Positions 43,266 to 59,431 of a stretch of 59,431 bases of DNA are shown here, in pieces. The stretch comes from Myxococcota bacterium. GTDB lineage: Bacteria > Myxococcota_A > UBA9160 > UBA6930. Location: the NCBI GenBank assembly GCA_036560185.1, contig DATBRS010000246.1, forward strand, positions 1 to 59,431. The letters run 5' to 3'. The notes below the pieces were generated by a model. That model did not search any database, was not told the origin of the DNA, and was given only the letters and a program-made list of their open reading frames with translations. A program made the position numbers and the translations under genes. Positions within the stretch are counted from its first letter, which is position 1. Each line of letters begins with the position of its first letter.

Positions 43266-43283
43266 GACTCGCCCTCAATAGAT

Positions 43284-44405
43284 TCAATAGAGGTAGGAGA
43301 GCCAGCTCGAGACACGGATGTAGATCGCGCCGAGCACGTTCATCAGGGGGTTGTCGCCGGCGTAGACGAGCACCTCGGCCTGGCCGCCGACGTGCGCGCC
43401 CGCGAGCGACGGATTTGAGTCGGCGTCGAACTCGATCGAGACCGGGATGCGCTGGGCTTGGCGCAACCAGTCGCGATCGTTCTGCACCGTCGGCAACGAT
43501 CCCGACTGCGACTGCTGGCCGCTGTCGACTCCGCGGCCGATGCTGCGAACGCGGCCCTTCAGCACGTGGCCGGGCAGGACGTCGAGGACGATGGCCGCCT
43601 CGTCGCCGATGTCGATGTGTCCGAGGTTGTTCTCGGTCATGTCGGCGCTGATCCACAGGTCGCGATCGGCGACGAGGGTCATCACGGGCGCGCCTGCCTG
43701 CACGAAGTGGCCGACGTCGGTGCGCAGGTCCGTCACCGTGCCGCCTGCGGGAGCGAGCACGCGGGTGTTACGGAGGTCGAGCATCGCCTTGTCGAGCGCG
43801 GCGCGGGCGCCCTTCACCTGCGCGTTCGCTTCTCCGATCTCGCCGGCGGCCTCGAGCGCCATGCGCAGGTCGGCCTCGGAAGCTCGAACCTTGCTGCGCG
43901 CCTCCTCGCGCGTAGCCTGCGCGATCTCGAGGCGGCGAACCGAGATCGCGCCGGGATCCTCGGCGTACAGGCGTTCCTGGCGCTCGGCGTCACGCTCGGC
44001 CATCTCGCGATTGGCCTCGGCCACCTTCAGGGAGGCGCGCGCGCCGTCGACGCCGGCGTGGGAGGCTTCGGCAGAGTCGAGTGCGAGGGCGTAGGCGGCC
44101 TCGGCGCTTTGCTGCGCGATCTCGTACGGCACGACATCGATGTCGAAGAGGGGCTGCCCGGCCACCACCGCGTCGTTGTCGCGAATGTGGACCTTCACGA
44201 CCTTGCCCGCCGCCTCGGCCGCGACCGGCACCACGAAGGCCTGGATTCGGGCCTGAGAAGTGGAAGGCGTCAGCCGATCGCCGACCAGGTACAGCACGAG
44301 GCTAATCAGGATCAGCGTGGCGACGATCGCGGAGCCCTTGCGAGAGGCGCTCCCGGCGTCGCGATCGGCGGGCGGAGCAGGCGAAGAGTCGGGGGGTTGG
44401 TTCAC
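43284..44405 (-). CDS. HlyD/EmrA-family membrane fusion protein
   Basis: N-terminal TM, VPVAAEAAGKV, AGQPLFDID, a coiled coil, VLAPAGGTV and WLRQAQRIPV. Confidence 0.93.
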   Translation of the reverse strand: MNQPPDSSPAPPADRDAGSASRKGSAIVATLILISLVLYLVGDRLTPSTSQARIQAFVVPVAAEAAGKVVKVHIRDNDAVVAGQPLFDIDVVPYEIAQQSAEAAYALALDSAEASHAGVDGARASLKVAEANREMAERDAERQERLYAEDPGAISVRRLEIAQATREEARSKVRASEADLRMALEAAGEIGEANAQVKGARAALDKAMLDLRNTRVLAPAGGTVTDLRTDVGHFVQAGAPVMTLVADRDLWISADMTENNLGHIDIGDEAAIVLDVLPGHVLKGRVRSIGRGVDSGQQSQSGSLPTVQNDRDWLRQAQRIPVSIEFDADSNPSLAGAHVGGQAEVLVYAGDNPLMNVLGAIYIRVSSWLSYLY

Positions 44406-45958: not shown

Positions 45959-46170
45959 GCGCTTCAGCCGGCCGTCGGAGTTCCGCCTTCCAACGCAGGA
46001 TCGTAGTTGGGTTGCGTGCTCATGGTGATCCCTCGAACGGTTGGCGCCCCGATCCATGCGATCCCGAGCGCTTGGGTGTTCCGTCGCCCGACCCGACGAG
46101 CATTGTCTCGTGTTTATAGGCCGACTTGCCAGCGGGCGGCCCAGGGAGGTGGAATACCGCCCTCAGATGA

Positions 46171-46760
46171 GGCGATAATGACTTCAACCGTGCTCGCTGT
46201 GGCGACGCCTCCGAGCGCATCGTGCTCGCCGCGATCGCGCAGCACGACGCCGGCGTGACTCGCGAGCAACTCACGGTTCTCACCGGTTAGTCGCGAATTC
46301 CCACCGCCAAAACGCGAGCCCGGCCGCTGTGTCGGCCGGCTGCTCTCGCCGCCCGCTGGCGCCACGCCCATCGTCGATCCAGAGACGCTGCCTAACAGCG
46401 GGCTGATCTGGCTCGAGAACGACACCACGACGCGGCAGGAGTTCGTCGCCCGCGTCATTGGGTCGCTCGTCGCGATCGACCTGGACCTCGCCGCCGGTTC
46501 GTGCAACCACGACTGTGTCGTGCGGCTGAGCGACGAGAAGCCGGGCGATCTCGGTGATCAGCTGACGCTGCCGTCGTGATGTGCGCGCGGAGTCATCGGT
46601 CGTCGATACCTGAGCCGCAATCACTCGACTGCGGAATGTACTCGCCGTCGATGTCTCCGGCGCCCGAACCCATCTCGAAGATGACGTTGTTGTCGACCAC
46701 ATCGGTGCCGGCGTCGCACTGCGCTGCTACGGGTCCGACTCCGCGGGCGAAGGGGCGCAA
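46171..46760. pseudogene. Mosaic of unrelated gene fragments next to the tRNA
   Basis: Three short coding-like segments: + 46171-46290 (ERIVLAAIAQHDAGVTREQLTVLTG*), + 46259-46579 (no start codon near its 5' end) and - 46760-46593 (QCDAGTDVVDNNVIFEMG...). Confidence 0.4.
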
Positions 46761-46791
46761 GCGCTACCCGTGCGACTTCCCTTCGGAAAGC

Positions 46792-46867
46792 TGGAGCGCG
46801 AGACGGGAATCGAACCCGCGACACTCGGCTTGGGAAGCCGATGCTCTACCAGCTGAGCTACTCGCGC
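46792..46867 (-). tRNA. tRNA-Gly (anticodon CCC)
   Basis: 76 nt cloverleaf: acceptor GCGCGAG/CTCGCGC, D-arm GCTC/GAGC, anticodon arm TCGGC-TTCCCAA-GCCGA, T-loop TTCGATT, U73 discriminator and an encoded CCA. Confidence 0.98.
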
Positions 46868-46917: not shown

Positions 46918-48054
46918 CTATTCGTCGACGATGTCGGCGAACAGATCCTCGAGCTCGCTGGTGTCGTCCAGCGCGAACTCTCGCGTCGCCCCTGCTCCGG
47001 CATCCGCCAGCGGGCCCGACATGATGACGGTCGCGGAGGCCACGGCGGAACGACGACCCGTCGGTTCGGCGACGACGTCGCCGAGGTCGAGTTCCTCGGC
47101 GGAGGTTTCGAACGGAGATTCACTCGGCGTGGATTCGCGGCGCTTCATCGGCGGGGGGGCGGCCGGCGTGCGGTCCGCGCGCACGCTCGCGGGCGGCCCG
47201 GCGAGCGGCGCCGCTTGCGGCTGCGCTTCGATGCCATCAGCGGCGCCGATGCCGAGCTCCGCGGCCGCGTGCTCGACGTGCGCCGCCGTCGCGCTCACGC
47301 GGCCGGCGCGATGCGCCTCGTAGAGAGCGTCGTCCGCGAGCGCGTTGATCCGGCGCGGAACTCCCCCGCACAGCCGCATCAAGCTCGCGACCGCGCTCGA
47401 CTCGAAGATCGCGGGGTTGCCGCCCGCGGCGCGGATGCGGTGGCGCACGTAGCCCTCCACCTCCTTCGGCTGCAGCGGCTGAATCGTGATGCGCAGGTCC
47501 ACGCGTTCGGCGAGCGCGGGCTCGGCGGCGACCGCGTCCGCGAGAGCCGGCGACCCCACCAGGATGATCGTCAGCAAGCGCTTCTCTTCGTACTCGAGAT
47601 TCAGCAGGCCGCGCAGCTCCGCGAGCAACCCCCGGTCCACGAGCACCTGCGCCTCGTCGACGATCAGGACGGCGTTGCGGCCCTCCTCGCGCACCATCGC
47701 AAGCTGCTCGTACACCTGCGCGAGTGCCGTCGCGAGCTCGTTCGACGGGGCCTCGACGCCGAGTTGTTGGGCCCAGCGCGTCAGCAGCCAGCGCATGTCC
47801 GTGACGCCTGGCACCGCGACCAGCAGGCTCGCCTCGAACACCTCCTCGTCGAGGGTCTGGAGCAGGTGGCGCGCGAGCATCGTCTTGCCCACGCCGCCGC
47901 GCCCGGAAACGACGCACAGGCCCTTCGCCTGCGTGGCCGCGCGGTGCAGCCGCTGCGTCGCGGCGGCGAACCCCGCTCCGTCGAAGTACCAGATGAGCTG
48001 CGCGTCGCAGCCGAAGGGATCACGGTCGAGGCCGAAGGTCGCGAGATGCTCCAC
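46918..48054 (-). CDS. ExeA/GspA-family AAA+ ATPase with acidic C-terminal tail
   Basis: N-terminal FGLDRDPF, Walker A GRGGVGKT, Walker B LIVDEAQ, IILVGSP and GVPRRINALAD. Confidence 0.88.
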   Translation of the reverse strand: MEHLATFGLDRDPFGCDAQLIWYFDGAGFAAATQRLHRAATQAKGLCVVSGRGGVGKTMLARHLLQTLDEEVFEASLLVAVPGVTDMRWLLTRWAQQLGVEAPSNELATALAQVYEQLAMVREEGRNAVLIVDEAQVLVDRGLLAELRGLLNLEYEEKRLLTIILVGSPALADAVAAEPALAERVDLRITIQPLQPKEVEGYVRHRIRAAGGNPAIFESSAVASLMRLCGGVPRRINALADDALYEAHRAGRVSATAAHVEHAAAELGIGAADGIEAQPQAAPLAGPPASVRADRTPAAPPPMKRRESTPSESPFETSAEELDLGDVVAEPTGRRSAVASATVIMSGPLADAGAGATREFALDDTSELEDLFADIVDE

Positions 48055-48076: not shown

Positions 48077-51064
48077 CTAGACGAATGAGATCTTCTTCTT
48101 GCGGCGCGGCGCTCCCGGCGACCCGGGGCCTTGCGGCGCGGCCGGAGCGCTCGGGGGCGCCGGCTTGGGCGGATCCGGCGGCGGCTCCGGAGCGCGCGTG
48201 GCCCTGCGCGGCGGAGGCTCCGGCGGTGCGCTCGGCTCGCTCTCGTCCTCGACCACCTCGTCCTGCAGGTCGAGCACCTCGGCCTCGGCCGGAGCGCTCT
48301 GGATCGCGTCCGAATCCTCCCCAGTCACGAGCTCGTCGAAGGATTCGTAGCTCGCTGCGGGCGCGACTCTCGGCGGCTCGCTGCCATGGTCTCCGACGAA
48401 GTCGTCGAAGGATTCGAAGGTCTCACCGCCATCAGCGGGCGCGGGCGGCGCTGCGGCCAGCTCCGCGAGCAAGCGGTCGATATCCCCGAAGCTCGGGTCC
48501 ACGCCGCGCGCGGCCTCGAACTCGCGCCGCGCGCGCGCGCGGTCGCCGTTCCCCTGATAAGCGCGACCGAGATCGACGCGCAGCGCGGCTTCCTGCTCCG
48601 CCGGCAGCTGTCCGCGCGCCAGCGCTTCGGACAAGTGCGCGATCGCGTCGCCGGCGCGTCCGAGGTCGAGTGCGCAAACGCCCATCAAGTGGAGGCACGC
48701 GAGGCTCCGGCCGGGATCGCCGTGGGCGACGCGGAACTCGCCGATCGCATCCTCGAGCAGGCCCATCTCCTTGTAGGCGATGCCGAGATCGAAGTGCGCC
48801 TCGTAGTCGCCGTCCTCCACCTCTCGCTTCACGCCGGCCTTGAAGGCGGCGAACACTTCCGCGAAGCCGTCCCCGTCGGAGTTCCCGGATGCCGTGCGTG
48901 CGGCGCCCGGTTCGTCGAAGGCGCCCGACAGCTCCGCCGCGAGATCGAAGTCCGCGCCCCCTAACATTTCGGGCGGGGCCTCCTCGCGAGCCGCGACCGG
49001 CGCCGGCTGCGCAGCGCGCGGCGCGGCTTGCGGTGTGGCGGGCGCCGGCGGAGCGATGGGGGATGCGACGGGCGCGGCGTACTCCGGCGTCGTGAGATCG
49101 CTGAGCGAGTCCGCCTCCTCGGCGGCGGCGGGCGACTGCGCGCTCGTCGCAGGTAGGTCGAGGTCGAGCGATGCCGCGCTGGCGGCCTCGACCTCGGCCA
49201 GCTTCGCCTGTGCAACGGGGTGGCCCGGCTTCGCGGCGAGCACGCGCGCGTAGAGAGCGCGCGCCTCTTCGAGGAGTCCCTGCTCGCGATAGAACTCCGC
49301 CTCTTCGAGGTCTGCTTGAACCGAGCTCGCAGCCCCCTGCGCAGGGTGCGCCGGAGTCGCCACCGCCGGTTTCGCGGGAGGCGCCTCCGTCTTCGCCCCG
49401 TCCGCTCGGTCGTCGAAGGAGAACTCACCCTCGTCGTCACTCGGCGTCGAAGCGGGCGCGGCGTTCTCGCGCAGCGGCGATTCCTCGGCCGGAGCGTCCG
49501 CGAGATCGCCCGAGACGTCGATGTCGATGCCTGAGAAGTCGTCGTCGGCTGCGCTCGCTGCCGGGTCCGGCGCTGCGCTGGGCTCTGGCCCCGCGAGCGA
49601 GTCGTGATCGCCGGCGTCGATCTCGATGTCGACGTCGCCGGAGTCAAGATCGGCGAGCGCATCCGTCGCCGGCTCGCTCGCCGGCGGCGCGGCCAGCGCA
49701 GACGCCGCGCGCGCATCGAGGGGCGCGAGCAAGCGCCGCACGCGCTCGACGCCTTCGGCGTTGCCTGCATCGCCATAAGCAGCGCCCGCACGTGCGAGCG
49801 CCGACGAGGCGTGCGGCTTGTTCCCGATCGCGACCAGCGACTCGCCCAGCTTCTCGAGCGCCGCCGCGTTCCCGGGTTCGACGCGCAGCGCCGAGCGCAG
49901 CGTCTCGATCGCACGCTCGTGCTTGCCGTAGCGCGAGAACACGCTCGCCTCGGCGAGCAACTGGTCGAAGTCTGCATCGGAGTCGGAGTCGCCCGCCGGT
50001 GCGATCTCCTCCGCGAGATCGCCGCTCGGCTGAAGCGTGCTGTCGGACGATTCGCCGAGCTCGTCCGGCTCGTCGCTCGCGGGCGGCTCTGCGGACTCGT
50101 CCTCAACGGCGTCGACGAGGCCGAGCGAGGCGTCGAGATCCGGATCGATCTCGAGATCGGTCGGATCGCCCTCGAGCGCGAGCGGGCCGGAATCCCCGGC
50201 CTCGAATGCCGCGCCCGCCCCGTAGCGCTGCGTGAGCGCGCGCGCGCGATCCTCGTCGCCGCGAGCGCGGAAGATCTCCGCGAGGCCGCGGAAGGTCTCT
50301 GCGGCTTCCTCGTCGCGCCCGATGCGCTCGAGCACGGTCCCTAACAGCTCGAGCGCGGCGACGTCGTCGGGCATCGCGGCGACCAGGCTCCGCGCCGCTT
50401 TCTCCGCCTGCTGCTTCGCGCCGGTCTCGAGCGCAGCCTGCGCGAGCGCGCGCAGGGTCGAGGCGCGCGCGGGCGCGAGCTCGAGCGCGCGCTCGAGCAC
50501 CTTGATCTGCCCCTCGGCGTTCTTCTGGCGTTCGAGCTCGCGCACGACCTCGTCGTACTCGGCGAGCGCGTCGTCGACCTTCCCTTCCGCCCGCAACAAG
50601 TCGGCGACCTTGAGCCGGCTGGTCGTGTTCGTGGGATCCAGCGCCGCCATGCGCCGCAGCAGGCCGAGCGCCTGGCTCTTGTCGCCCGCGCGGTGCGCGC
50701 CGTCCGCCGCGAACTGGATCGCCCGCATCGCCTCGGAGGTGAGGCCCATGCGCTGGTACAGCTCGCCGAGCTGCGCGTGGACCTCGAAGCGCTTCTCGTC
50801 GAGCTTCGTGACCTGCTTGTAGAGCGCGACCGCCTTCGCGTCGAAACCTTCGTTCGTGAATTGTTGGGCGACGCGCAGGTAGGCGTCGATCGCCTCGGAG
50901 GTGCGACCGAGCTTCAAGTGGAGATCGCCCACCTTGAGGCGGATGTTCGAGTCCTTCGAATCCGCCTTGAGGAGGGTTTGGTAGTCCTCGAGCGCCTTGT
51001 CCAAAGCCCCGCGTTGCAGGTGCTTTTGGGCAGACTCGAGGATCTTCCGCTTGTTCACCGCCAA
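48077..51064 (-). CDS. sgmX: Large multi-TPR protein, SgmX-like type IV pilus activator
   Basis: N-terminal TPR block (GALDKALEDYQ, GFDAKAVALYKQV, GLTSEAM), middle TPRs separated by acidic linkers, a C-terminal block FKAGV...EAHFDLGIAYKEMGLLEDAIGEF, and the tail KKKISFV. Lies downstream of pilQ and mglC. TTG 51064 follows a GAGGGGG SD. The orthology call is from recall. Confidence 0.75.
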   Translation of the reverse strand: MAVNKRKILESAQKHLQRGALDKALEDYQTLLKADSKDSNIRLKVGDLHLKLGRTSEAIDAYLRVAQQFTNEGFDAKAVALYKQVTKLDEKRFEVHAQLGELYQRMGLTSEAMRAIQFAADGAHRAGDKSQALGLLRRMAALDPTNTTSRLKVADLLRAEGKVDDALAEYDEVVRELERQKNAEGQIKVLERALELAPARASTLRALAQAALETGAKQQAEKAARSLVAAMPDDVAALELLGTVLERIGRDEEAAETFRGLAEIFRARGDEDRARALTQRYGAGAAFEAGDSGPLALEGDPTDLEIDPDLDASLGLVDAVEDESAEPPASDEPDELGESSDSTLQPSGDLAEEIAPAGDSDSDADFDQLLAEASVFSRYGKHERAIETLRSALRVEPGNAAALEKLGESLVAIGNKPHASSALARAGAAYGDAGNAEGVERVRRLLAPLDARAASALAAPPASEPATDALADLDSGDVDIEIDAGDHDSLAGPEPSAAPDPAASAADDDFSGIDIDVSGDLADAPAEESPLRENAAPASTPSDDEGEFSFDDRADGAKTEAPPAKPAVATPAHPAQGAASSVQADLEEAEFYREQGLLEEARALYARVLAAKPGHPVAQAKLAEVEAASAASLDLDLPATSAQSPAAAEEADSLSDLTTPEYAAPVASPIAPPAPATPQAAPRAAQPAPVAAREEAPPEMLGGADFDLAAELSGAFDEPGAARTASGNSDGDGFAEVFAAFKAGVKREVEDGDYEAHFDLGIAYKEMGLLEDAIGEFRVAHGDPGRSLACLHLMGVCALDLGRAGDAIAHLSEALARGQLPAEQEAALRVDLGRAYQGNGDRARARREFEAARGVDPSFGDIDRLLAELAAAPPAPADGGETFESFDDFVGDHGSEPPRVAPAASYESFDELVTGEDSDAIQSAPAEAEVLDLQDEVVEDESEPSAPPEPPPRRATRAPEPPPDPPKPAPPSAPAAPQGPGSPGAPRRKKKISFV

Positions 51065-51263
51065 ACGAGCGCCCCCTCTTCCCCAACACGGCGCAGCGCC
51101 CCCGCCGAGCGGGTTCGCCTCCCCCAATACGGGTTCATATCGGGACGGCGGGGGGGCCTCTTGAGGCAGGAGCCGCCCAAGGCGAGCCCGGGCGGGGCGA
51201 ATCCGGCGGGCCTCTACTCCGACGGAGCCTGCGCCCCGCGGTGGGAGCCTGCGAGGCTTCGGC

Positions 51264-51701
51264 TCACTTCGCGAGGCGGGTGAGCAGGCCCTCGAGGCCG
51301 AGCCGGTAGCTGTCGGCGCCGAAGCCCGAAACGATCGCCACGCACACCCCGGAGAGCAGCGACTGCTGCCGGAACTCCTCGCGTGCGAAGATGTTCGAGA
51401 GGTGCACCTCGATCGCCGGAAGCGAGACGCCCGCGATGGCGTCGCGCAGCGCGACGCTGGTGTGCGTCAAGCCGCCGGCGTTCACGATCAGGCCGTGCGC
51501 CCAGGTACGCGCCTCGTGAATCCGGTCGATCAGGCCGCCCTCGTGGTTCGATTGGAAGCAGTGCACCTCGGCACCGCGCTCGCGCCCGAGCGCGACCAGG
51601 CGCGCGTCGATCTCGCCGAGCGTCGTCGTGCCGTACAGCGCGGGCTCGCGGGCACCCAGCAGGTTCAGATTCGGCCCGTGGAGGACGAGGATGTTGGGCA
51701 T
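51264..51701 (-). CDS. aroQ: Type II 3-dehydroquinate dehydratase
   Basis: LHGPNLNLLGAREPALYG, FQSNHEG, NAGGLTHTSVALRDAI and IEVHLSNIFAREEFR. Confidence 0.97.
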   Translation of the reverse strand: MPNILVLHGPNLNLLGAREPALYGTTTLGEIDARLVALGRERGAEVHCFQSNHEGGLIDRIHEARTWAHGLIVNAGGLTHTSVALRDAIAGVSLPAIEVHLSNIFAREEFRQQSLLSGVCVAIVSGFGADSYRLGLEGLLTRLAK

Positions 51702-51714
51702 GCGGCGCACGGTA
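51702..51714 (-). promoter_or_regulatory. -10 element of a probable leaderless aroQ transcript
   Basis: TACCGT (51714-51709), GCGCCGC, then ATG 51701. No SD. Confidence 0.5.
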
Positions 51715-51769: not shown

Positions 51770-52129
51770 CTAGAGCTGCTCGCGCACGTCGAGCGTGTGG
51801 CGGCGCAGCAGGTAGCGGGCCTTGCCGAGGTTCCCGGTGGGATCGAGCGCCAGTACGAAGAACGTCTCGCGATCGACCGCACGCAGCACCACCTGCGTCC
51901 GCGCCATCGCGATCACGAGCTCGTCCAGCTCCCCCCCGTTCACGGTGGACGCGACCTTGCGCGCCTCGTCCAGCACGCGACCGAACTCGACGCCGAGCAG
52001 CGTCACCTCGTCGCTCTCGCCGGCGCCGCCGACTTCCGCGATCGGGATCCCGTCCGCGCCCATCAGCGCGATCCCGATGCAGCCCGGGCACTGGTTCACG
52101 ATCGCGCCGAGAATCGTCTCGAAGCTCAT
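51770..52129 (-). CDS. mglC: Roadblock/LC7 protein, MglC-like
   Basis: MSFETILGAIVNQ, LMGADGI and FFVLALDPTGNLGKARYLLR. The 119-aa length and position downstream of pilQ fit MglC. Confidence 0.8.
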   Translation of the reverse strand: MSFETILGAIVNQCPGCIGIALMGADGIPIAEVGGAGESDEVTLLGVEFGRVLDEARKVASTVNGGELDELVIAMARTQVVLRAVDRETFFVLALDPTGNLGKARYLLRRHTLDVREQL

Positions 52130-52743
52130 GCCGTTCGCCTCCGCAAGTTGTCGAGCCAGCGCGTGAGGGTGGCGACGACTTTCTCGCGTCGCGCCTCATC
52201 CAATCGCTGCTCACGGAATTGTCCCCGCAGCCGCGCAGCCGTGCGCACCTCGTCCGCACGCTCGCGCTGTCCTTGCCGCTCGAGCAAGCCGGCCACCGTC
52301 TCCGTCGCGAAAGGAGACTCCGCCGAGGTGAGGTCGACGCCCTCGGGCACGCCGTCTTCGACGAGCTCGAGCGCAGCGGCGGCGACTTCATTCGCGTCGT
52401 GCATCTCGTCGGCCTGCGCTTCCGCTGTCTCGAATGCGTCCTCGACTTCGTCGTCGGCGAGCTCTGAGAGCGCTGCGGGCGCAGCGAGCACGGCCTGTGG
52501 CTCTTCGACTTCGCCGCCGAGCGCGAGATAGGCGGCCTCGAGCGCGCGATGGGCGGTCACGAGATCGCCGGAGTCGATCAGCGCGAGCGCGTAGGCGACA
52601 TGCGCCACCGGATGCGGCGCCTCCGCGTCGAGCGCGGCGTGTGCGAGCTCGCGCGCGCGATCGGGCCGGCCCGCGCGGCGTTCGCCTTCGGCGCGCGCGG
52701 CGAGCGCCGCACTGTCCGTCTCGCTCGTTCGCGTCTGACTCAT
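52126..52743 (-). CDS. Hypothetical TPR-like protein
   Basis: N-terminal TPR-like helices, an acidic linker, FATETVAGLLERQG and a C-terminal helix LTRWLDNLRR. Its ends overlap both aroB and mglC. Confidence 0.65.
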   Translation of the reverse strand: MSQTRTSETDSAALAARAEGERRAGRPDRARELAHAALDAEAPHPVAHVAYALALIDSGDLVTAHRALEAAYLALGGEVEEPQAVLAAPAALSELADDEVEDAFETAEAQADEMHDANEVAAAALELVEDGVPEGVDLTSAESPFATETVAGLLERQGQRERADEVRTAARLRGQFREQRLDEARREKVVATLTRWLDNLRRRTA

Positions 52744-53852
52744 CAGCGTTTCGCCCCTGTTCGCAGCGCCGGGGGAAGGATCTCTTCTGGGCGCAGCGGC
52801 ACCGTCTCCGCGCTGCCGATCATACGCAGCGCGACGAAGCGGATGTGCGCGTCCCGCCGCTTCTTATCGGCGGATATCGCATCGAGATAAGCGCGCCGCG
52901 GGAACGGCGGCAGCTCGGTCGGGAGCCCCGCCCGCGCGAGCAGGGCCACCAGGCGGACCGCGCTGCCGGGCGCCGCCAAGCCGAGCTCCTCGCTGCGCCG
53001 GGCGGCGAACGCCATGCCCATCGCGACCGCCTCCCCGTGCAGCACGCCGCGGTACTTCGAGAGCGCCTCGACGGCGTGCCCGAGCGTGTGGCCGAAGTTG
53101 AGCAGCATGCGCTCGCCCGATTCGCGCTCGTCGCGGCTGACGACGCCAGCTTTGATCGCGCAGTTGCGCGCCAAGAACGGCAGCAGGACCTCCGGATCGA
53201 GGGCGAGCAGCCGCTCGAGCTCACGCTCGAGCAGGGCGAACAGCTTCGCGTCGCGAATCGCGGCGTGCTTCACGCCCTCGGCCAGCCCGGCGAGCAGCTC
53301 GCGGCGCGGCAGCGAGCGGAGCGTCGCGGCATCGATCCACACGAGCTTCGGCTGATGGAAGGCGCCCACCAGATTCTTGCCGCGCTTCACGTTCACACCG
53401 GTCTTGCCGCCGACGCTGGAGTCGAGCATCGCCAGCAGGCTGGTCGGAACCTGCACGAAGGCGACACCGCGCAGCAGCGTCGCCGCGACGAAGCCGGTGA
53501 GATCTCCGACGACTCCGCCGCCGAGGGCGATCAGCACGCTGCCGCGGTCGGCCTCGGCCGCGAGCAGCGCGTCGTAGAGCTGCTCCGCCTGCCGCAGGCT
53601 CTTGCTGCGCTCGCCATCCGGGACGACGAGCCGCTTCACCGTCAGGCCCGCCGCCTTCAGCGAACGCTCGACCGGCGGCGCCCAACGCTTCGCGACCGGC
53701 GGCACCGTGACCACGAACGCGCGGCTCGCCCCGGTGCGCTCCTTCACCGCGCTGCCGAGCTGCCCGAGCGTGCCGACGCCGATTTGGATCGGGTAGCCGC
53801 GCGCACCGAGCTCGACGTGGATGGTGAGCCCCGCAGCCGTCGCGGACGTCAT
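52743..53852 (-). CDS. aroB: 3-dehydroquinate synthase
   Basis: PDGERSKS, ALGGGVVGDLTGF, QVPTSLLAMLDSSVGGKTGVN and LNFGHTLGHAVE...HGEAVAMG. Confidence 0.97.
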   Translation of the reverse strand: MTSATAAGLTIHVELGARGYPIQIGVGTLGQLGSAVKERTGASRAFVVTVPPVAKRWAPPVERSLKAAGLTVKRLVVPDGERSKSLRQAEQLYDALLAAEADRGSVLIALGGGVVGDLTGFVAATLLRGVAFVQVPTSLLAMLDSSVGGKTGVNVKRGKNLVGAFHQPKLVWIDAATLRSLPRRELLAGLAEGVKHAAIRDAKLFALLERELERLLALDPEVLLPFLARNCAIKAGVVSRDERESGERMLLNFGHTLGHAVEALSKYRGVLHGEAVAMGMAFAARRSEELGLAAPGSAVRLVALLARAGLPTELPPFPRRAYLDAISADKKRRDAHIRFVALRMIGSAETVPLRPEEILPPALRTGAKR

Positions 53853-54370
53853 GCCTGCTCCCGGGTCAGCAGCGCTTCGATCTCGCGCGCGATCCGGCGC
53901 GGATTCCCGGTATTCGAGTCGACGATGTGGTGCGCCTGCATGTACGCCGGCTCCCGTTGCGCGAGCAGCTCACGCAGCTTCGCGAGTCGCCCCGCTGCGT
54001 CCAGCCCCGCGAGCAGCGGCCGCGAAACGCCCGAGCCGACGCGGCGCGAAAGCGTCTCCGCACGCGCGCGCAGGTAGACGACGACGCCGCTCGCCCGCAA
54101 GCGCTCCGGCGCGCCCGGCTGCGCCATTGCGCCGCCTCCGAGCGCGACGACCGCGCGGCTCGCCGCGAGCCGCTCGATCACCGCGCGTTCTCGCGCGCGA
54201 AACGCGGCCTCGCCCTCGCGCGCGAAGATCTCGGGAATCGTCGTGCCGGCCTCGCGTGCGATCTCGGCGTCCGAGTCGTAGGCCGCGCAGCCGAGCCGCT
54301 TCGCGAGCTCCAGGGCGACGCTGGATTTTCCAGCACCCATCAGGCCCACCAGGAAGATCGTCCGCTGCAT
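53849..54370 (-). CDS. aroK: Shikimate kinase
   Basis: Walker A GLMGAGKS, YDSD, EGEAAFRARE, ALGGG and RPLL. Confidence 0.96.
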   Translation of the reverse strand: MQRTIFLVGLMGAGKSSVALELAKRLGCAAYDSDAEIAREAGTTIPEIFAREGEAAFRARERAVIERLAASRAVVALGGGAMAQPGAPERLRASGVVVYLRARAETLSRRVGSGVSRPLLAGLDAAGRLAKLRELLAQREPAYMQAHHIVDSNTGNPRRIAREIEALLTREQA

Positions 54371-54478: not shown

Positions 54479-57043
54479 CTACGAACCCAGCTCCGGGTTG
54501 ACCACGATGCGCGGCGTCACGAACACCAGAAGCTCCTTGCGAATGTCGCGGACTTCCTTGTTCTTGAACGCGTTGCCGATCACCGGCACGCGGTGGAAGT
54601 ACGGCACGCGGCTCTCGCGGTCGGCCGTCTGCACCACGTAGATGCCGCCGATCACGAGCGTCTGTCCGTCCGCCACCAGGGTCTCGGTGGTCGCTTCGTT
54701 CTTCGCGATCGCCGGCGAGCCCGTCGGCGTCGGCACGCTGTCATCCGGCGCGTTCCGCTTCACTTCGATCTTCATGATGATGCTGCGGTCCGCGGTGATG
54801 TGCGGCGTGACGTCGAGCGAGAGCACCGCATCGATGAACTCGAGCTTGGCGTCGCCGTCCTCGAAGGTCTGGAACGGGATCGACACGCCCTGCTCGATGC
54901 TCGCCTTGCGGTTGTCGAGAGTCACGACGCGCGGGCTGGAGATCACCTTGCCCTCGCCGTGGCTCTCGGCGCCGGCCAGCGTGAGATCCACGTCGAAGCG
55001 CTCATCCAGGATGAACGCGCCGAGGTTGATCGCGCCGGTCGCGAGCTCGGTGATCGGGTTCGACACCGCGAAGCCGTTGCTGCCAGCGCCCGAGGGCCGC
55101 AGGCGGAAGGCGTCGCTGCCGAGCGCCTGCGTCGGCCCCGAGCTGGTGAGCGGGGCGCTGTCCGGATCCCAGGCATCCGTCAGCGGCTGCACGCCCGCAC
55201 CCCAGCGCGAGCCCACTTCGCGCAGGAAGTCGAGGTTCGCCTCGACGATCTTCGCCTCGACCATCACCTGCGGCGTCTGCGTGTCGATCGCCTTGATGAG
55301 CGCGGTCGCCTCGTCGATCACCGCCGCGATGTCCTTCAGGATCACCGTGTTGGTGCGCTGGTCGACGTCGACCGTGCCGCGCGCCGACAGCAGCTTCTTC
55401 ACCAGCTTCGCGACTTCCGCGACGTTGGCGTAGTTGACGGGCTGCAGCTTGACGACGAGATCCTCGAGCTTCTCTTTGGCGCGGCGCTCTTCCAGGCGCG
55501 CCGCCTCCTCGGTCTTCAGCACGTCGGTCGGCGCGATGCGCAGCACGTTGCCGACCCGCACGAAGCCGAGGCCCTTCGTCAGCAGGATCACGTCGAGGGC
55601 CTGGTCCCAGGGCACGTCGACCAGGCGAATCGTGACATTGCCGCTCACTTCGTCGCCCGCGATCACGTTGAGCTCGGAGACTTCGGCGATCAGGCGCAGC
55701 ACGTCGTCGACTTCCACGTCCTTGAAGTCGAGCGAGATGCGCCGGCCGCTGTAGGTCTTGCCCGTGAGCAGCCCGCCCTCTTCCAGCTCGTCGATCGAAC
55801 CGTTCGTCTCGATCGATGCCGGCGCGCGCAGCTGCGCCGCCTCTGCGGCCGCCGGCGAGCTCGCCGACGCCGGCGCCGCGGACGGGTCGCTCGCCGCGCT
55901 CGGCTGCGCGGCCGCCTCGGCCTTCGCGCCCGCCGTCTCGATCTGCTCGTCCGCCGCGGCCGCCATCACCGGCACCGCTTCGGCCTTCGCGGTGTTCGCG
56001 AAGTCGATCACCAGCATCGCGCCGTTCTGCTGCACGGTCGGCTTCACGCCGGCCGCGCGCTTCACGACGACGCGAACCTCGGGCGTCGCCATCTCCGGTT
56101 GATCGAAGGCGGTGACGAGCGAGACCACGCCCGGGTTCTCCGGCGCGATCCGCACCTGCGCCTCTTCCTGGATCGTGGCGCCGCCGATGCGAATGACGAA
56201 CGTCTCCGCGTCCGGCTCCCACGCCGTGTACTTCGCCGTACCGTCGCTCACGACCACGATGCGGTCGCGCTCGGCGGAGGTGTCGAACTGCACGCCCAGC
56301 ACCTTCTGCGTGGTGACCTCGGCCGCCGCGCTCTCCTCGGGCATCGCTGCCGGCGCCGGCTCCGTCGCTCCCTCGATCGGCGACGAGTCGGTCTCGGTGG
56401 TCTCGGTCGCGACCTGCACCGCCTCATCGGCCGCGACTGCAGCCGAGCTGCCCATCGCCACCGACAAGCCGCCCGCGAGCGCCTGCGCGGTCTGCGCCGG
56501 GAAGCTCGTCACGCCGTCCGCGGCGTCGATCACCACACGGACCTTGTCCGGGTGCTGCGCGATGCGGACGCGCGACACGAGCGCGCCAGCGAGCTCGCTC
56601 TTGGCGGGCACGCCTTCGCTCTTGAGCTTGGGCAGGTCGATCACGAGGCGGAGCGGATCCGCCACCGTGAAGACGTCCGCGCCGTCGATGCGGCCGTCCG
56701 CCGCGAGCTCGACGATCACGCCGCCGTCCTGCTCCCGCGCCGAGACGCCCGTGAGCTTCGTCGCGGGCGATGCGGCCGCTGCCGCGTCGGCAGCGACGCG
56801 CGCCGCGTCCTCCGCGGCGAGCCGCGCGCTCTCGTCCGAGACGCCTTGCTGCGCCCACGGATCTCCCGCGCCCTCGCTCTCACTCGAGGCGAGGCCAATC
56901 TCGTCGGACGAGCCCTCGTCCTCCGAGGCCGTCGGCGTCGGGGCCGAGGCACAGCCCAGCGCCAGCGCGAGCGCCAGCGCAGTAGCCGCGCGGGTGAGAA
57001 CCCCGCCATTCAGATAGTTACGAAGTGCGGACATCGTGCTCAC
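54479..57043 (-). CDS. pilQ: Type IV pilus secretin PilQ with two AMIN-like domains
   Basis: AMIN-like repeats (PLRLVIDLP / RVRIAQHPDKVRVVID), RISLDFKD, VPWDQAL, DQRTNTVI, QVMVEAKIVEA, SSPRVVTLDN and ELLVFVTPRIV. Confidence 0.96.
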   Translation of the reverse strand: MSTMSALRNYLNGGVLTRAATALALALALGCASAPTPTASEDEGSSDEIGLASSESEGAGDPWAQQGVSDESARLAAEDAARVAADAAAAASPATKLTGVSAREQDGGVIVELAADGRIDGADVFTVADPLRLVIDLPKLKSEGVPAKSELAGALVSRVRIAQHPDKVRVVIDAADGVTSFPAQTAQALAGGLSVAMGSSAAVAADEAVQVATETTETDSSPIEGATEPAPAAMPEESAAAEVTTQKVLGVQFDTSAERDRIVVVSDGTAKYTAWEPDAETFVIRIGGATIQEEAQVRIAPENPGVVSLVTAFDQPEMATPEVRVVVKRAAGVKPTVQQNGAMLVIDFANTAKAEAVPVMAAAADEQIETAGAKAEAAAQPSAASDPSAAPASASSPAAAEAAQLRAPASIETNGSIDELEEGGLLTGKTYSGRRISLDFKDVEVDDVLRLIAEVSELNVIAGDEVSGNVTIRLVDVPWDQALDVILLTKGLGFVRVGNVLRIAPTDVLKTEEAARLEERRAKEKLEDLVVKLQPVNYANVAEVAKLVKKLLSARGTVDVDQRTNTVILKDIAAVIDEATALIKAIDTQTPQVMVEAKIVEANLDFLREVGSRWGAGVQPLTDAWDPDSAPLTSSGPTQALGSDAFRLRPSGAGSNGFAVSNPITELATGAINLGAFILDERFDVDLTLAGAESHGEGKVISSPRVVTLDNRKASIEQGVSIPFQTFEDGDAKLEFIDAVLSLDVTPHITADRSIIMKIEVKRNAPDDSVPTPTGSPAIAKNEATTETLVADGQTLVIGGIYVVQTADRESRVPYFHRVPVIGNAFKNKEVRDIRKELLVFVTPRIVVNPELGS

Positions 57044-57612
57044 CCTCCCGTGCTCTGCCGAATGCGCATCTCGATCTCTTTCTCGGTCTTGTCGCCGTGG
57101 AAATCGACGTAGGACTCGAGAACCAACATCGACGAGTCGTTGATCTCCGTGACGACTCCATCGTTCTTTCCGATCCGATCGCCGTTCTTCACGACGTAGG
57201 CCTGGCCGGACGGATCCAGGACCAGCGCGCGGCGGCGATCGGCCTGCCAGACCACGCCGGAGATCGTCAGCTGACCCAGCTCGAACTGCTCGAGCGGACT
57301 CGTCAGGTCGAGCTTGTCGTCGTTCAGCTTGTCCTTCACGAACGAGCGGAACGGATCACGCTTGCCAGCGGGGTCGTAGCGGTAGTCGGCGGAGGCGACG
57401 CCATAATTGGTGCGCACGCCGCCCTTGTCCTCGGCGGGAGCGCCAGGCTTCGCCGCCGGCGCCGCGGTCGCGACGGTCGGCGCCTTCGCGACGGCTTCGG
57501 CGCGCGCCTTCTCGAAGTCGGTTGCGTTCGCCGTCGGCCCCTGCTCGCTGCAGCCCGCGAGTGCGAGCGCGAGCCCGGAAGCCAGCACGGCGCTGCGCGC
57601 AGTCTTCTTCAT
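57040..57612 (-). CDS. pilP: Type IV pilus assembly lipoprotein PilP
   Basis: Lipobox LALAGC, YDPAGKRDPF, PLEQFELGQL and GDRIGKNDG. ATG 57612 overlaps the pilO stop. Confidence 0.94.
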   Translation of the reverse strand: MKKTARSAVLASGLALALAGCSEQGPTANATDFEKARAEAVAKAPTVATAAPAAKPGAPAEDKGGVRTNYGVASADYRYDPAGKRDPFRSFVKDKLNDDKLDLTSPLEQFELGQLTISGVVWQADRRRALVLDPSGQAYVVKNGDRIGKNDGVVTEINDSSMLVLESYVDFHGDKTEKEIEMRIRQSTGG

Positions 57613-58283
57613 CCCTGGCCCCCCTTTGCATCGCCCGTCGCGCTCGGCTGAGCGCCGCCCGGTGCGGGCGCGCCGCCAGCAGCCGGCGCCGGCTTGTCTT
57701 CGACGAACCGGAACGTGGTCGCGCGGCCATCGACCTTCAGCAGCGTCGTGTCCGAGGTCTCGCGCGCGATCGACACCGTCATCTCGCCCATGTTCACGAT
57801 GCGCGGCAGCCGCGAGATGTCGTCGAAGAAGCGCGCGATGTCGTGGTACCGGCCGGTGAACTCGAGCTCGATCGGAACCTCGGCGTAGAACGCCTTGCGC
57901 ACCTCGGTGCCGGGCCGGAACGACTTGAACTCGAGGCCCGCGTTCTTGCCGAGGCTCGACACGTCGGTGAGCAGTCCGGGCAGCTCCTTGTCGTTCGGCA
58001 GCTGTCGCAGCGCTTCCTTGAGCTTGCGATCGAGCATCGCGATCTCTTCCTTCACCTGCGCTTCGTTGCCGGCGACCGCGCGCACTTCCGCGAGCCGGCG
58101 CTGCAGCTGCAGCTGCTGCTCGCGCGCCGCATTGCGCTCGGCGCGCGCGGGCAGGAAGAACGAGTACGTGTAGGCACCGAACACCAGCGCGCAGAGCGCC
58201 GGCGCGATCCCCATGCGGACTCCGCGCGGCAGCTTCGCGAGCTTGTCGAGCTGCGCCTGATATTTCTCGAGACCGAGTTCCAT
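57609..58283 (-). CDS. pilO: Type IV pilus assembly protein PilO
   Basis: Single TM, coiled coil, LPNDKELPGLL, FYAEVPI and GRYHDIARFF...LPRIVN. Confidence 0.95.
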   Translation of the reverse strand: MELGLEKYQAQLDKLAKLPRGVRMGIAPALCALVFGAYTYSFFLPARAERNAAREQQLQLQRRLAEVRAVAGNEAQVKEEIAMLDRKLKEALRQLPNDKELPGLLTDVSSLGKNAGLEFKSFRPGTEVRKAFYAEVPIELEFTGRYHDIARFFDDISRLPRIVNMGEMTVSIARETSDTTLLKVDGRATTFRFVEDKPAPAAGGAPAPGGAQPSATGDAKGGQG

Positions 58284-58292
58284 GGCCCTCTC

Positions 58293-58919
58293 CTACCGCG
58301 CCGCGAGCGCGGGGGATGCAGCGCTCGCAGTCGCGTGCTTCGCGGCCGCCGGGTTCTTCGCGTCCGCATCCGACGGCGCGGCACCCTCGAGCACCGCCGA
58401 CATCTGGAAGGCGTTGAGCTTGTATCCGTCGACGTCCTTGGCCTGCGTCTCGAGCAGCTCGACGTCCGCGAAGTGAGGCGACGCGTTCATGGCCGTCAGG
58501 AAGAGCGCGACCAACTCGTTGTCGAGGCTCACGCCCTCGATCGTGAGCTGCTGGCCTTCGACCTCGAGCTTGGTGAGCCACATCCGATCGGGCAGGTGCG
58601 TCGCGATCTCGTCGAACAGGTGGACCGGGCCGCTGCGCGCGACCGAGAGCTCGTCGATCACGCGGAGCTTCTTCTCGATGTCCGCCTTCGCGGCGCGGAA
58701 CTTCTCGACCTGCGCGAGCTGCGGCGCGTAGCCGTCGATCTCGGTCTGGATGCGGGCGGCCGCTTTCTTCGCCCCTGCGACCTCGCTCCGGAACCACACG
58801 TGATGGACGGACGAGAGCGCCACCGACGCCGCGACCGACGCCGCGATGACCAGCAGGAACTGGCGCGCCCCAGCCTTGCGCCGCGCTTCACGAACCGGGA
58901 GTAGGTTGATCGTAATCAT
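58293..58919 (-). CDS. pilN: Type IV pilus assembly protein PilN
   Basis: N-terminal INLLP motif (PilM-binding), a TM, a coiled coil and PDRMWLT. Confidence 0.95.
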   Translation of the reverse strand: MITINLLPVREARRKAGARQFLLVIAASVAASVALSSVHHVWFRSEVAGAKKAAARIQTEIDGYAPQLAQVEKFRAAKADIEKKLRVIDELSVARSGPVHLFDEIATHLPDRMWLTKLEVEGQQLTIEGVSLDNELVALFLTAMNASPHFADVELLETQAKDVDGYKLNAFQMSAVLEGAAPSDADAKNPAAAKHATASAASPALAAR

Positions 58920-59431
58920 CAGTCGTTCATCCTTCGCAGCGCGAGGCCGGTGGCGACCGAGAGGCCGGGGCCGAGGTCCTCGAGCATCCGCGCGTCGAGG
59001 CTGCCGGCGGCCACGATCCGCGCGAGCGGATTCAGGCGCTCCACCGGCAAGTTCGTCTTGCCCTGGAACGCGCTCTCGAGGCCGGAGACTTGCGAGCCGC
59101 CGCCCGAGAGCAGCACCCGGCTGATGCGGCTCTCCGCCGCCGTCGCGGCGAAGAAGTCGAGCGAGCGGCTGATCTCGCCGAGCACCGTTTCGGTGACCTG
59201 GCGGATCGCGTCCTCGACTTCCTGCGGCACGACCTCCTGGCTCTCTTCGTGGCGCGAGCCGCCGATCTTCATGCGCTCGGCCTCTTCCCAGCTGACCGAG
59301 AGCGCCTTCTGAATCTCTTCGGTGTACGCGTTGCCGCCCGTCGAGATGTCGCGCGTGAACGCCGGCGCGCCGCGCGACACGATGTTGATGTTCACGACCT
59401 GCGAGCCGATGTTGACGAGCGCGACGACTTC
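58919..59431 (-). CDS. pilM: Type IV pilus assembly protein PilM, 3' part only (runs off the window end)
   Basis: VNIGSQVVNINIV, FTRDISTGGNAYT, EISRSLDFF, LLSGGGS and VATGLALR (actin-like fold). Confidence 0.94.
   Translation of the reverse strand, partial: EVVALVNIGSQVVNINIVSRGAPAFTRDISTGGNAYTEEIQKALSVSWEEAERMKIGGSRHEESQEVVPQEVEDAIRQVTETVLGEISRSLDFFAATAAESRISRVLLSGGGSQVSGLESAFQGKTNLPVERLNPLARIVAAGSLDARMLEDLGPGLSVATGLALRRMND

What the first reader, a model, noticed from the sequence alone, without database searches (positions are those of the whole stretch)
48077..51064. SgmX-like pilus activator with conserved TPR blocks and a KKKISFV tail
The architecture matches Myxococcus SgmX as I recall it: an N-terminal TPR block that activates pili, a middle block, and a C-terminal MglA-binding block, followed by an ExeA-like gene. 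With mglC and pilMNOPQ nearby, this implies MglA-type polarity control of type IV pili in a lineage that otherwise looks unlike the fruiting myxobacteria. The isolated basic-hydrophobic C-terminus after a Pro-rich spacer looks like a peptide ligand for an unknown partner.
Basis: partly seen in the sequence, partly recalled or inferred. Interest (0 to 1): 0.68.

Follow-up and report, generated by a model that had tools for sequence, protein, structure and literature searches.

The report
SgmX pilus-activator ortholog with conserved tail
This gene is the counterpart, in an uncultured soil myxobacterium, of SgmX (the scaffold that tells Myxococcus at which pole to build type IV pili), and its KKKISFV end is the local form of a short tail found on nearly all SgmX proteins, almost always next to one uncharacterised ATPase gene.

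Summary
Window 48077-51064 (-) encodes a 995-aa cytoplasmic TPR protein ending in RRKKKISFV.

It is the reciprocal best hit of a Corallococcus SgmX that passes NCBI's own cut-off. It is the only such locus in its genome. It sits in the same gene order as in fruiting myxobacteria: pilMNOPQ, mglC, sgmX, ExeA-type ATPase. An AlphaFold2 model gives 8 + about 3 + 1 + 3 TPRs separated by disordered linkers, which fits the published 14-TPR, three-domain layout.

The genome also holds mglB-mglA (MglA 79% identical to the M. xanthus protein as I recalled it), MglC, a RomR-like protein and pilB/T/C. FrzS, the polar receptor of SgmX in M. xanthus, is not detectable in this genome or in eight relatives of its order and class.

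The tail is not peculiar to this lineage. All 120 Myxococcaceae-type SgmX proteins retrieved end in K-V-G-Y/F-[VLI], and 115 of 120 relatives of the window protein end in the same kind of motif, mostly K-I-S-F-V. Sandaracinaceae homologues end in an acidic AFDDLMGED instead.

Across 39 loci the tail goes with an ExeA-type ATPase gene directly downstream (12/1/5/21). The SgmX papers I searched do not mention it.

Verdict: an ordinary new member of a known family, plus a testable lead on the tail.

The parts
48077..51064 (-). sgmX ortholog, 995 aa (TTG start; an alternative GTG start lies at 51058)
   Evidence: ORF and translation; NF052243 is the top NCBIfam hit at E 5.8e-69; reciprocal best hit
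50201..51064 (-). aa 1-288: eight N-terminal TPRs, the counterpart of the SgmX pilus-activating domain (TPR1-8)
   Evidence: 16 helices at pLDDT about 97; 35% identity without gaps to Corallococcus SgmX, E 2e-46
49685..49972 (-). aa 365-460: middle TPR module (about TPR9-10), part of the counterpart of the FrzS-binding S-domain
   Evidence: AlphaFold2 helices 366-456; the SgmX model alignment reaches residue 423; 53% mean identity to the window residue within the family
49166..49336 (-). aa 577-633: single TPR plus capping helix (about TPR11)
   Evidence: EEAEFYREQGLLEEAR aligns with DEASFFLDQGLLEEAR of Corallococcus SgmX
48929..48949 (-). aa 706-712: FDLAAEL short motif inside a disordered linker
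   Evidence: 97% conserved in alignment A1; present in 97/120 relatives of the window protein and 99/120 Myxococcaceae-type SgmX, and in 0/120 of the Sandaracinaceae set
48452..48871 (-). aa 732-871: three C-terminal TPRs with caps, the counterpart of the MglA-GTP-binding M-domain (TPR12-14)
   Evidence: 33% identity to Corallococcus SgmX, E 2e-29, including HFDLGIAYKEMGLLEDAIGEF against HYDLGIAYKEMGLLDDAVHEF
48329..48418 (-). aa 883-912: two acidic-aromatic motifs, FESFDDF and YESFDEL, in the C-terminal disordered region
   Evidence: E907 is invariant, S908 and F909 are nearly so; a motif of this type is present in 114/120 relatives of the window protein
48080..48106 (-). aa 987-995: RRKKKISFV-COOH tail after a 74-residue Pro-rich spacer; stop codon at 48077-48079
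   Evidence: the only ORF in the genome with such an ending
46918..48054 (-). ExeA/MshM-type AAA_22 ATPase, 378 aa, no TM segment noted on reading the translation, ortholog of the gene downstream of sgmX in Myxococcaceae (MXAN_5765 position)
   Evidence: PF13401 E 3.8e-20; 39% identity to the Corallococcus neighbour gene, E 1e-63; best of four paralogues in the genome
46792..46867 (-). tRNA-Gly(CCC), which ends the sgmX-ATPase unit
   Evidence: ARAGORN
51264..51710 (-). aroQ (type II 3-dehydroquinase), between mglC and sgmX
   Evidence: PF01220 E 8e-56
51770..52129 (-). mglC (Roadblock-type polarity adaptor)
   Evidence: PDB 7CT3 M. xanthus MglC, E 4.3e-16 over the full length; 37% identical to the gene in the same position in Cystobacter fuscus
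52743..54370 (-). aroB (52743-53852) and aroK (53849-54370)
   Evidence: TIGR01357 E 8.5e-112; PF01202 E 4.9e-39
54479..59431 (-). pilQ, pilP, pilO, pilN and pilM (pilM cut by the window end)
   Evidence: TIGR02515 E 8.5e-126; PilP, PilO, PilN and PilM_2 Pfam hits

Best explanation
The gene encodes the SgmX ortholog of an uncultured Myxococcota lineage with a small genome (4.3 Mb). By homology it is a cytoplasmic multi-TPR scaffold. Its C-terminal TPR triad is expected to bind MglA-GTP at the leading pole. Its eight N-terminal TPRs are expected to switch on extension of type IVa pili, probably through PilB recruitment. These steps are inferred from M. xanthus work, not shown here. The gene probably forms a two-gene unit with an ExeA/MshM-type ATPase that starts 22 nt after its stop; co-transcription is inferred from this spacing. 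The RRKKKISFV end is the local form of an ancestral SgmX tail, K-[IV]-[SG]-[FY]-[VLI]-COOH, held on a disordered Pro-rich leash. My best guess is that this tail is a docking peptide for the adjacent ATPase, which I rate at about 35%. The tail would serve an accessory or regulatory function and is not needed for pilus activation itself. FrzS is missing from the whole order, so polar docking of this SgmX must use another receptor.
For: Orthology. NF052243 (SgmX) is the top NCBIfam hit and matches both the N block (model 2-405) and the C block (model 842-1017). The reciprocal best hit holds in both directions. There is one locus per genome in 55/61 genomes of the phylum sample.

Synteny. The order pilMNOPQ - mglC - sgmX - ATPase is shared with Cystobacter fuscus and with the closest relative. 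mglC lies upstream on the same strand within 5 kb in 28/38 genomes that have MglC.

Architecture. AlphaFold2 gives 8 + about 3 + 1 + 3 TPRs, against the published 8+3+3 (PMC9811614).

Partners in the genome. mglB-mglA; MglC; a RomR-like protein with a receiver, a disordered region and a conserved C-terminal helix; pilB, pilT, pilC, pilS and pilR homologues.

Tail. 115/120 relatives of the window protein and 120/120 Myxococcaceae-type SgmX, including an M. xanthus record, carry it. The last five residues are 97% conserved against 19% in the spacer. The tail goes with an ATPase gene directly downstream in 12 loci against 1 without; tail-less loci split 5 with and 21 without (Fisher 1.7e-5). The ATPase gene starts 9-77 nt after the stop in all 17 cases.
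Against: The score against NF052243 is 233 bits against a cut-off of 1800, so NCBI's annotation pipeline would not name it SgmX. Identity to true SgmX is only 33-35% in the blocks, and the linkers do not align.

No function was tested. FrzS is absent, so the M. xanthus localisation mechanism cannot apply as described.

Tail. In M. xanthus, C-terminal GFP, mCherry and mVenus fusions are mostly or fully active (PMC7668184, PMC11580455). The mimB truncation, which removes TPR12-14 and everything after, still activates pili (PMC7668184). Deletion of MXAN_5763-5765 does not affect T4P motility (PMC11580455). So neither the tail nor the ATPase is needed for the known function.

The tail-ATPase association is not corrected for phylogeny. 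It has five counter-examples with an ATPase but no tail, and one with a tail but no ATPase. AlphaFold2 leaves the tail disordered (pLDDT below 50), which says nothing about a partner in trans.
Confidence: 0.8

Rival explanations
1. The protein is an SgmX-family scaffold, but its main job is with the ExeA-type ATPase in a process other than pilus polarity. Pilus control would be a Myxococcus-specific addition.
For: The TPR-ATPase pair is tightly coupled (gaps of 9-77 nt). Earlier notes of this scan report the same pair in several other phyla without pilus genes nearby (unchecked leads). In Myxococcus and Bdellovibrio the operon continues into tamB/tamA-like genes (PMC3983030).
Against: Here the gene sits about 3.4 kb downstream of pilQ, next to mglC, in the same order as in Myxococcaceae. 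The blocks that carry pilus activation and MglA binding in M. xanthus are the best conserved parts. No TamB/TamA-like genes follow the pair, and none were found in this genome at E below 1e-10.
Confidence: 0.12
2. The basic-hydrophobic tail is a C-terminal degradation tag of the ClpX 'C-motif 2' kind (like MuA ...RRKKAI; recalled from Flynn et al. 2003). It would keep SgmX levels low.
For: RRKKKISFV resembles that class. SgmX dosage matters: the mimA mutation overexpresses SgmX and bypasses MglA (PMC7668184). C-terminal fusions would mask a degron without loss of function, as observed.
Against: The conserved core is [IV]-[SG]-[FY]-[VLI], not the basic run. The order that includes G042 has ...TDNISYV or ...NKSNISYI with few or no basic residues. 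Myxococcaceae average only 2.9 basic residues in the eight positions before the last four. Degrons are seldom this invariant. The link to the ATPase gene is left unexplained.
Confidence: 0.12
3. The polybasic-hydrophobic tail is a membrane or polar anchor that binds anionic lipids. In lineages without FrzS it would replace FrzS.
For: There are five consecutive basic residues plus I, F and V on a flexible leash. FrzS is absent in this order. The tail is not docked in cis in the model.
Against: Two genomes of the same class lack both FrzS and the tail. The order of G042 lacks FrzS but has an almost uncharged tail. Myxococcaceae have both FrzS and a tail. Four hydrophobic-core residues are few for membrane insertion.
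Confidence: 0.1
4. It is a generic TPR protein (FimV-like, as some JGI records name homologues) with no specific relation to SgmX.
For: JGI names several homologues 'pilus assembly protein FimV'. TPR proteins cross-hit many families.
Against: Reciprocal best hit, single-copy status, conserved synteny, and shared non-TPR motifs (FDLAAEL and the tail) with true SgmX.
Confidence: 0.02

Closest known systems
Myxococcus xanthus SgmX (MXAN_5766; NCBIfam NF052243), polar activator of type IVa pili and effector of MglA-GTP
   Same: Reciprocal best hit. About 1000 aa, cytoplasmic, 14-15 TPRs arranged 8 + 3 + 3 with disordered linkers. The N block is 35% and the C block 33% identical. It shares the FDLAAEL motif and the C-terminal K-[IV]-[SG]-[FY]-[VLI] tail. 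The neighbourhood is the same: pilMNOPQ, mglC upstream, ExeA-type ATPase downstream.
   Different: Far below the curated cut-off (233 vs 1800 bits). The linkers are unrelated. The tail is polybasic (RRKKKISFV against ...ARKVGY[VL]). Two extra [FY]ESFD[DE]x motifs are present. No tamB/tamA genes follow the ATPase. aroK, aroB and aroQ are interleaved. The FrzS partner is absent from the genome.
Bdellovibrio bacteriovorus Bd2492 (TPR protein that interacts with MglA and RomR; PMC3983030)
   Same: A remote homologue of SgmX that is tied to MglA and to pilus-dependent function. It is the first gene of its operon.
   Different: Bd2492 has only 353 aa and is followed directly by tamB/tamA-like genes without the ATPase. 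I did not compare sequences here.
Vibrio MSHA pilus genes mshM (ExeA-like ATPase) and mshN (TPR protein); Aeromonas ExeA/GspA (from my own knowledge)
   Same: An ExeA-type P-loop ATPase paired with a TPR protein inside a type IV pilus or type II secretion locus.
   Different: ExeA carries a transmembrane segment and a periplasmic peptidoglycan-binding domain. On reading the translation I saw neither in the ATPase here. No sequence relationship beyond the AAA_22 domain was tested.
Sandaracinaceae/Polyangiales SgmX-like proteins (P0122-P0241, including Sandaracinus amylolyticus records)
   Same: Same family, with N and C blocks matching NF052243 at up to 339 bits and a single locus per genome.
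   Different: They are shorter (about 700-980 aa). They end in the acidic motif DD[IV]DRAFDDLMGED in place of the basic-hydrophobic tail (0/120 have the tail). The five Polyangiales-order loci I checked have no adjacent ATPase. They lack FDLAAEL.

Membership tests
SgmX (NCBIfam NF052243, equivalog_domain) | Score at or above the curated cut-off of 1800 bits | tested here: not met
   233.4 bits, E 5.8e-69. The cut-off was passed by Corallococcus SgmX (1951 bits); Cystobacter fuscus SgmX, scored in two pieces in the six-frame search (891 + 451 bits), was not flagged as passing. In the genomes I searched the cut-off therefore marks only very close relatives.
SgmX orthologous group | Reciprocal best hit with a bona fide SgmX, and single copy | tested here: met
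   (both directions). Only one locus in the genome, with the next hit at 36 bits.
SgmX orthologous group | Conserved gene neighbourhood: pilMNOPQ and mglC upstream, ExeA-type ATPase directly downstream | tested here: met
   The tamB/tamA continuation of the M. xanthus operon (PMC3983030) is not present.
SgmX | 14 TPRs in three functional groups: TPR1-8, TPR9-11 and TPR12-14 | tested here: met
   AlphaFold2 model with 8 TPRs (aa 1-288), 2-3 (365-460), 1 (577-633) and 3 (732-871). The assignment of repeat numbers rests on my alignment to Corallococcus SgmX and on the published G802 frameshift position (PMC7668184).
SgmX | Direct binding of MglA-GTP by TPR12-14 | not testable with these tools
   MglA is present (79% identity to the recalled M. 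xanthus sequence) and the block is conserved. Binding itself was not tested.
SgmX | Polar docking on the FrzS pseudo-receiver through TPR9-11 | tested here: not met
   The FrzS receiver (identical to PDB 2GKG) finds 222 and 206 bits in Cystobacter and Corallococcus. It finds only 40-59 bits, the background level of ordinary receivers, in this genome and in 8 genomes of the same order or class. No protein with a receiver followed by a coiled coil was found in the genome.
SgmX | Required for type IVa pilus extension | not testable with these tools
   This needs genetics. The pilus machine genes are present.
FimV/HubP-type polar TPR scaffolds | Signal-anchor, periplasmic LysM domain and C-terminal FimV TPR motif | not tested
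   No FimV family appeared among the 21 NCBIfam hits or the Pfam hits. The N-terminus starts directly with a TPR helix. No dedicated search was made.

The most novel reading that the evidence does not exclude
The K-[IV]-[SG]-[FY]-[VLI]-COOH tail, present on SgmX from M. xanthus to this lineage, is the docking hook for the uncharacterised ExeA/MshM-type ATPase encoded directly downstream. The ATPase would use it to load, remodel or remove SgmX at the pilus base. This would be an ATP-driven step in pilus polarity control that the standard motility assays have missed.
Probability: 0.25. Interest if true: 0.6.

Novelty: new member of a known kind. Interest (0 to 1): 0.33.

Why it matters
For the gene itself: it shows that the MglA-SgmX route to type IV pili, with MglB, MglC and a RomR-like protein, is kept in a small-genome, uncultured branch of Myxococcota. 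That branch lacks FrzS, so FrzS docking is probably not a universal part of the circuit.

For the family: every SgmX study I could read used C-terminal fusions or truncations, and none mentions the tail. The tail is nevertheless among the most conserved parts of the protein outside the TPRs, and it tracks the neighbouring ATPase, whose function is unknown (MXAN_5765 in M. xanthus). That gives Myxococcus laboratories a cheap, direct experiment. Other follow-ups in this scan have noted the same pair and tail, so this window adds a well-documented Myxococcota case and is not a first sighting.

Tried and rejected
1. Two phylum- and order-level genome samples held no Myxococcaceae genome. A true SgmX was reached only by fetching MglA loci with organism names and searching those genomes. 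Searches failed on the server side.

2. The 1065-aa homologues P0079, P0090 and P0101 looked like SgmX by length, but they score only about 290 bits.

3. Is the tail a motif shared with other proteins? No other ORF in the genome ends in [KR]{2}[IVL][SGTA][FYW][VILFM].

4. Does the tail dock in cis on a TPR groove? AlphaFold2 does not support this (pLDDT below 50).

5. Does MglC track the tail? No. MglC is also present in tail-less families.

6. Does the polybasic run make up for loss of FrzS? Rejected: the FrzS-less order of G042 has an uncharged tail, and family f6 has no tail at all.

7. Confirming RomR through NCBIfam or the PDB: neither holds a RomR entry. The call rests on architecture only.

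8. The ATPase has no solved relative detectable by sequence.

9. I did not try to fuse SgmX and the ATPase through stop-codon read-through for a pseudo-complex prediction. The frames do not join in this window, and a covalent link would remove the free carboxylate.
Full report
**Observation**

The frame 48077-51127 (-) is open. It yields L-AVNKRKIL, the N-terminus shared by the homologues. The protein on record starts two codons later (P0002, 993 aa).

The 995-aa product is rich in TPRs. After a Pro-rich stretch it ends in RRKKKISFV.

**What it is**

The best NCBIfam family by a wide margin is NF052243, 'type IV pili formation protein SgmX' (E 5.8e-69). It matches model positions 2-405 and 842-1017. 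The score of 233 bits is far below the curated 1800.

To test orthology I needed a true SgmX. Genome samples of the window's phylum held none. I therefore fetched MglA loci with organism names and searched those genomes. Corallococcus llansteffanensis has one locus at 1951 bits, over the cut-off. NCBI itself names that protein SgmX (P0244).

- Corallococcus SgmX searched against the window's whole genome hits only this ORF.
- The window protein searched against the Corallococcus and Cystobacter fuscus genomes hits their SgmX loci best (141-142 plus 79-81 bits). The next hit has 44 bits.
- BLASTP gives 35% identity without gaps over residues 2-269 (E 2e-46) and 33% over 587-872 (E 2e-29). This includes HFDLGIAYKEMGLLEDAIGEF against HYDLGIAYKEMGLLDDAVHEF.
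- The family is single-locus in 55 of 61 sampled genomes of the phylum and in 40 of 41 of the order that holds Sandaracinaceae-like genomes.

**Neighbourhood**

On the minus strand the order is:

- pilM (cut by the window end), pilN, pilO, pilP, pilQ
- aroK, aroB
- a 205-aa unknown
- mglC
- aroQ
- sgmX
- an ExeA-type ATPase
- tRNA-Gly

.

Cystobacter fuscus has pilMNOPQ, mglC, three other genes, sgmX and the ATPase in the same order and orientation. The closest relative (73% identity) has exactly the window's order.

The ATPase is 39% identical to the gene downstream of Corallococcus sgmX (E 1e-63). It is the best of four paralogues in the genome.

In M. xanthus the genes are MXAN_5770 (mglC, PMC4719450) and MXAN_5766-5763 (sgmX, 'Sec system ATPase', tamB-like, tamA-like; PMC3983030). 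The tamB/tamA part is missing here, and I found no counterpart in the genome at E below 1e-10.

**Architecture**

An AlphaFold2 model built on 118 homologues (mean pLDDT 72.9) has four confident TPR modules:

- aa 1-288: 16 helices, eight TPRs
- aa 365-460: two to three TPRs
- aa 577-633: one TPR plus a cap
- aa 732-871: three TPRs plus caps

Everything between them and after them is disordered. This fits the published 14-TPR layout: TPR1-8 activate pili, TPR9-11 bind FrzS, and TPR12-14 bind MglA-GTP (PMC9811614, PMC7668184).

My mapping of repeat numbers uses the alignment to Corallococcus SgmX and the published mimB frameshift after G802. It is an inference.

**Partners in the genome**

The assembly has 4.3 Mb in 295 contigs and is 91.6% complete.

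- **mglA and mglB.** It has the P-loop, the arginine of TETERTL and the PGQ glutamine. mglB lies directly upstream (MglB matches NF052242). There are two further MglA paralogues.
- **RomR-like protein.** A protein at C223:3282-4580 has a receiver domain, a long acidic and Pro-rich linker, and a conserved helical C-terminus. That is the RomR architecture described in PMC3983030. No library holds a RomR model, so this call is by architecture only.
- **Pilus motor genes.** Homologues of pilB, pilT, pilC, pilS and pilR lie on other contigs.
- **FrzS is missing.** The FrzS receiver sequence, which I recalled and confirmed to be identical to PDB 2GKG, scores 222 and 206 bits in Cystobacter and Corallococcus. 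It scores 64-89 bits in Anaeromyxobacteraceae, Sandaracinaceae-like, Sorangium and Nannocystis genomes. In the window's genome, six genomes of its order and two of its class, it scores only 40-59 bits. That is the level of ordinary receivers; the top hit in the window's genome is the RomR-like protein. A phmmer scan of all ORFs found no receiver followed by a coiled coil.
- **Not tested.** RomX, RomY and SopA were not tested, because I had no reference sequences.

**The tail**

- Among the 120 closest homologues, 72 end in KKISFV and 35 in RKISFV. In all, 115 fit [IVL][SGTA][FYW][VILFM]-COOH.
- In alignment A1 the last five residues match the window's residue in 97% of sequences, against 19% in the preceding 74-residue spacer.
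- All 120 proteins found with Corallococcus SgmX as query end in K-V-G-[YF]-[VLI]. They come from Myxococcus xanthus, M. fulvus, M. stipitatus, Pyxidicoccus, Stigmatella, Hyalangium, Archangium and Cystobacter.
- An Anaeromyxobacteraceae genome has ...KKNIGFL.
- A separate order of the phylum (that of G042) has ...NISYV...KISYV or ...NITYV without the basic run.

The tail is therefore an old feature of SgmX, and KKKISFV is its local, polybasic form.

It has been lost or replaced several times. The 120 Sandaracinaceae-type homologues all end in an acidic DD[IV]DRAFDDLMGED. Several other families end right after the last TPR.

Two other short motifs stand out in the disordered parts:

- FDLAAEL is shared with Myxococcaceae-type SgmX (97/120 and 99/120).
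- A pair of [FY]ESFD[DE]x motifs is specific to the window's relatives (114/120).

**What the tail may do**

No other ORF in this genome has such an ending. AlphaFold2 does not dock it in cis.

Across 39 SgmX-family loci with enough downstream sequence, the counts are:

| | ATPase gene adjacent | no adjacent ATPase gene |
|---|---|---|
| tail present | 12 | 1 |
| tail absent | 5 | 21 |

One of the five tail-less loci with an ATPase ends in a degenerate KKKKSLV. Fisher's test gives p = 1.7e-5 without correction for shared ancestry. In all 17 cases with an ATPase, the gene starts 9-77 nt after the stop codon.

This agrees with earlier notes of this scan on other phyla, which I treat as leads. 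I tested the idea independently here, but only inside Myxococcota.

The M. xanthus literature limits what the tail can be needed for:

- SgmX-sfGFP and SgmX-mCherry are 'mostly functional' (PMC7668184), and SgmX-mVenus is 'fully active' (PMC11580455).
- The mimB truncation lacks TPR12-14 and the tail, and it still activates pili (PMC7668184).
- Deleting MXAN_5763-5765 leaves T4P motility intact (PMC11580455).

So the tail and the ATPase may form an accessory sub-module. Its role might be loading, remodelling or turnover of SgmX, and standard assays would not reveal it. SgmX dosage does matter, since overexpression bypasses MglA (PMC7668184).

Rival readings are a ClpX-type degron or a lipid anchor. 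Both fit the basic run of this lineage less well than they first seem to. The conserved core is the uncharged [IV]-[SG]-[FY]-[VLI], and some lineages have no basic residues.

**Comparison with the literature**

SgmX orthologues across Myxococcales are known (PMC11580455). A remote homologue exists in Bdellovibrio (PMC3983030). I found no mention of the tail in the four SgmX papers or the 2024 preprint that I searched. These were term searches of the text, not complete readings.

**Verdict**

The gene is an ordinary new member of the SgmX family.

Three points go beyond routine annotation:

- the lineage-wide absence of FrzS;
- the family-wide tail with its link to the ATPase;
- the phylum-wide mglC-sgmX linkage (28 of 38 genomes).

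All three are computational, and the last two have been seen before in this scan.

Noticed in passing
window 51770-52129 and 48077-51064; genomes: mglC lies upstream of the sgmX-family gene, on the same strand and within 262-4580 nt, in 28 of 38 sampled Myxococcota genomes that have MglC. The MglC paper (PMC4719450) treats mglC as an 'orphan'. I did not see this linkage discussed there.
   Followed up: partly
P0122-P0241 (Sandaracinaceae-type homologues); L004 2100-2774 (-); window 46918-46960: Sandaracinaceae-type SgmX-like proteins end in DD[IV]DRAFDDLMGED. This resembles the C-terminus of this genome's MglB (DDDIDNLFSD) and of the window's ATPase (ELEDLFADIVDE). From memory, the MglB C-terminal helix binds MglA, so these acidic-aromatic ends may compete for one site.
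   Followed up: no
window 52126-52743 (-): A 205-aa protein with only a weak TPR_19 hit (E 1e-3) overlaps aroB by one base at its start and overlaps the start of mglC by 4 nt at its end. A 213-aa gene is kept in the same place in the closest relative (L152 4389-5030). Function unknown.
   Followed up: no
window 41586-46867: The efflux genes (NodT-type OMF, HlyD adaptor, DUF2955 protein) between the tRNA-Gly and the TonB receptor are absent from the closest relative. There the ATPase is followed within about 300 nt by TonB-receptor genes (L152).
   Followed up: partly
genome contigs C227:8445-8996 and C69:131-685: Two MglA paralogues (46% and 37% identity to the recalled M. xanthus MglA). The first lies in an open frame of up to 581 aa, which could be a SofG-like GTPase with an extension.
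   Followed up: no
genome contig C252:5014-7029: [quoted passage not shown]
   Followed up: no
genome contig C223:3282-4580: RomR-like protein: receiver domain, acidic and Pro-rich linker, conserved helical C-terminus ...WEVIPKMAETMIREEIRKLKESDEQ. Identified by architecture only.
   Followed up: partly
L109-L110 (Cystobacter fuscus 9,579,395-9,586,395): The tamB-like (1317 aa) and Omp85-like (1072 aa) genes that follow the sgmX-ATPase pair in C. fuscus have no counterpart at E below 1e-10 in the window's genome, which is 91.6% complete.
   Followed up: partly
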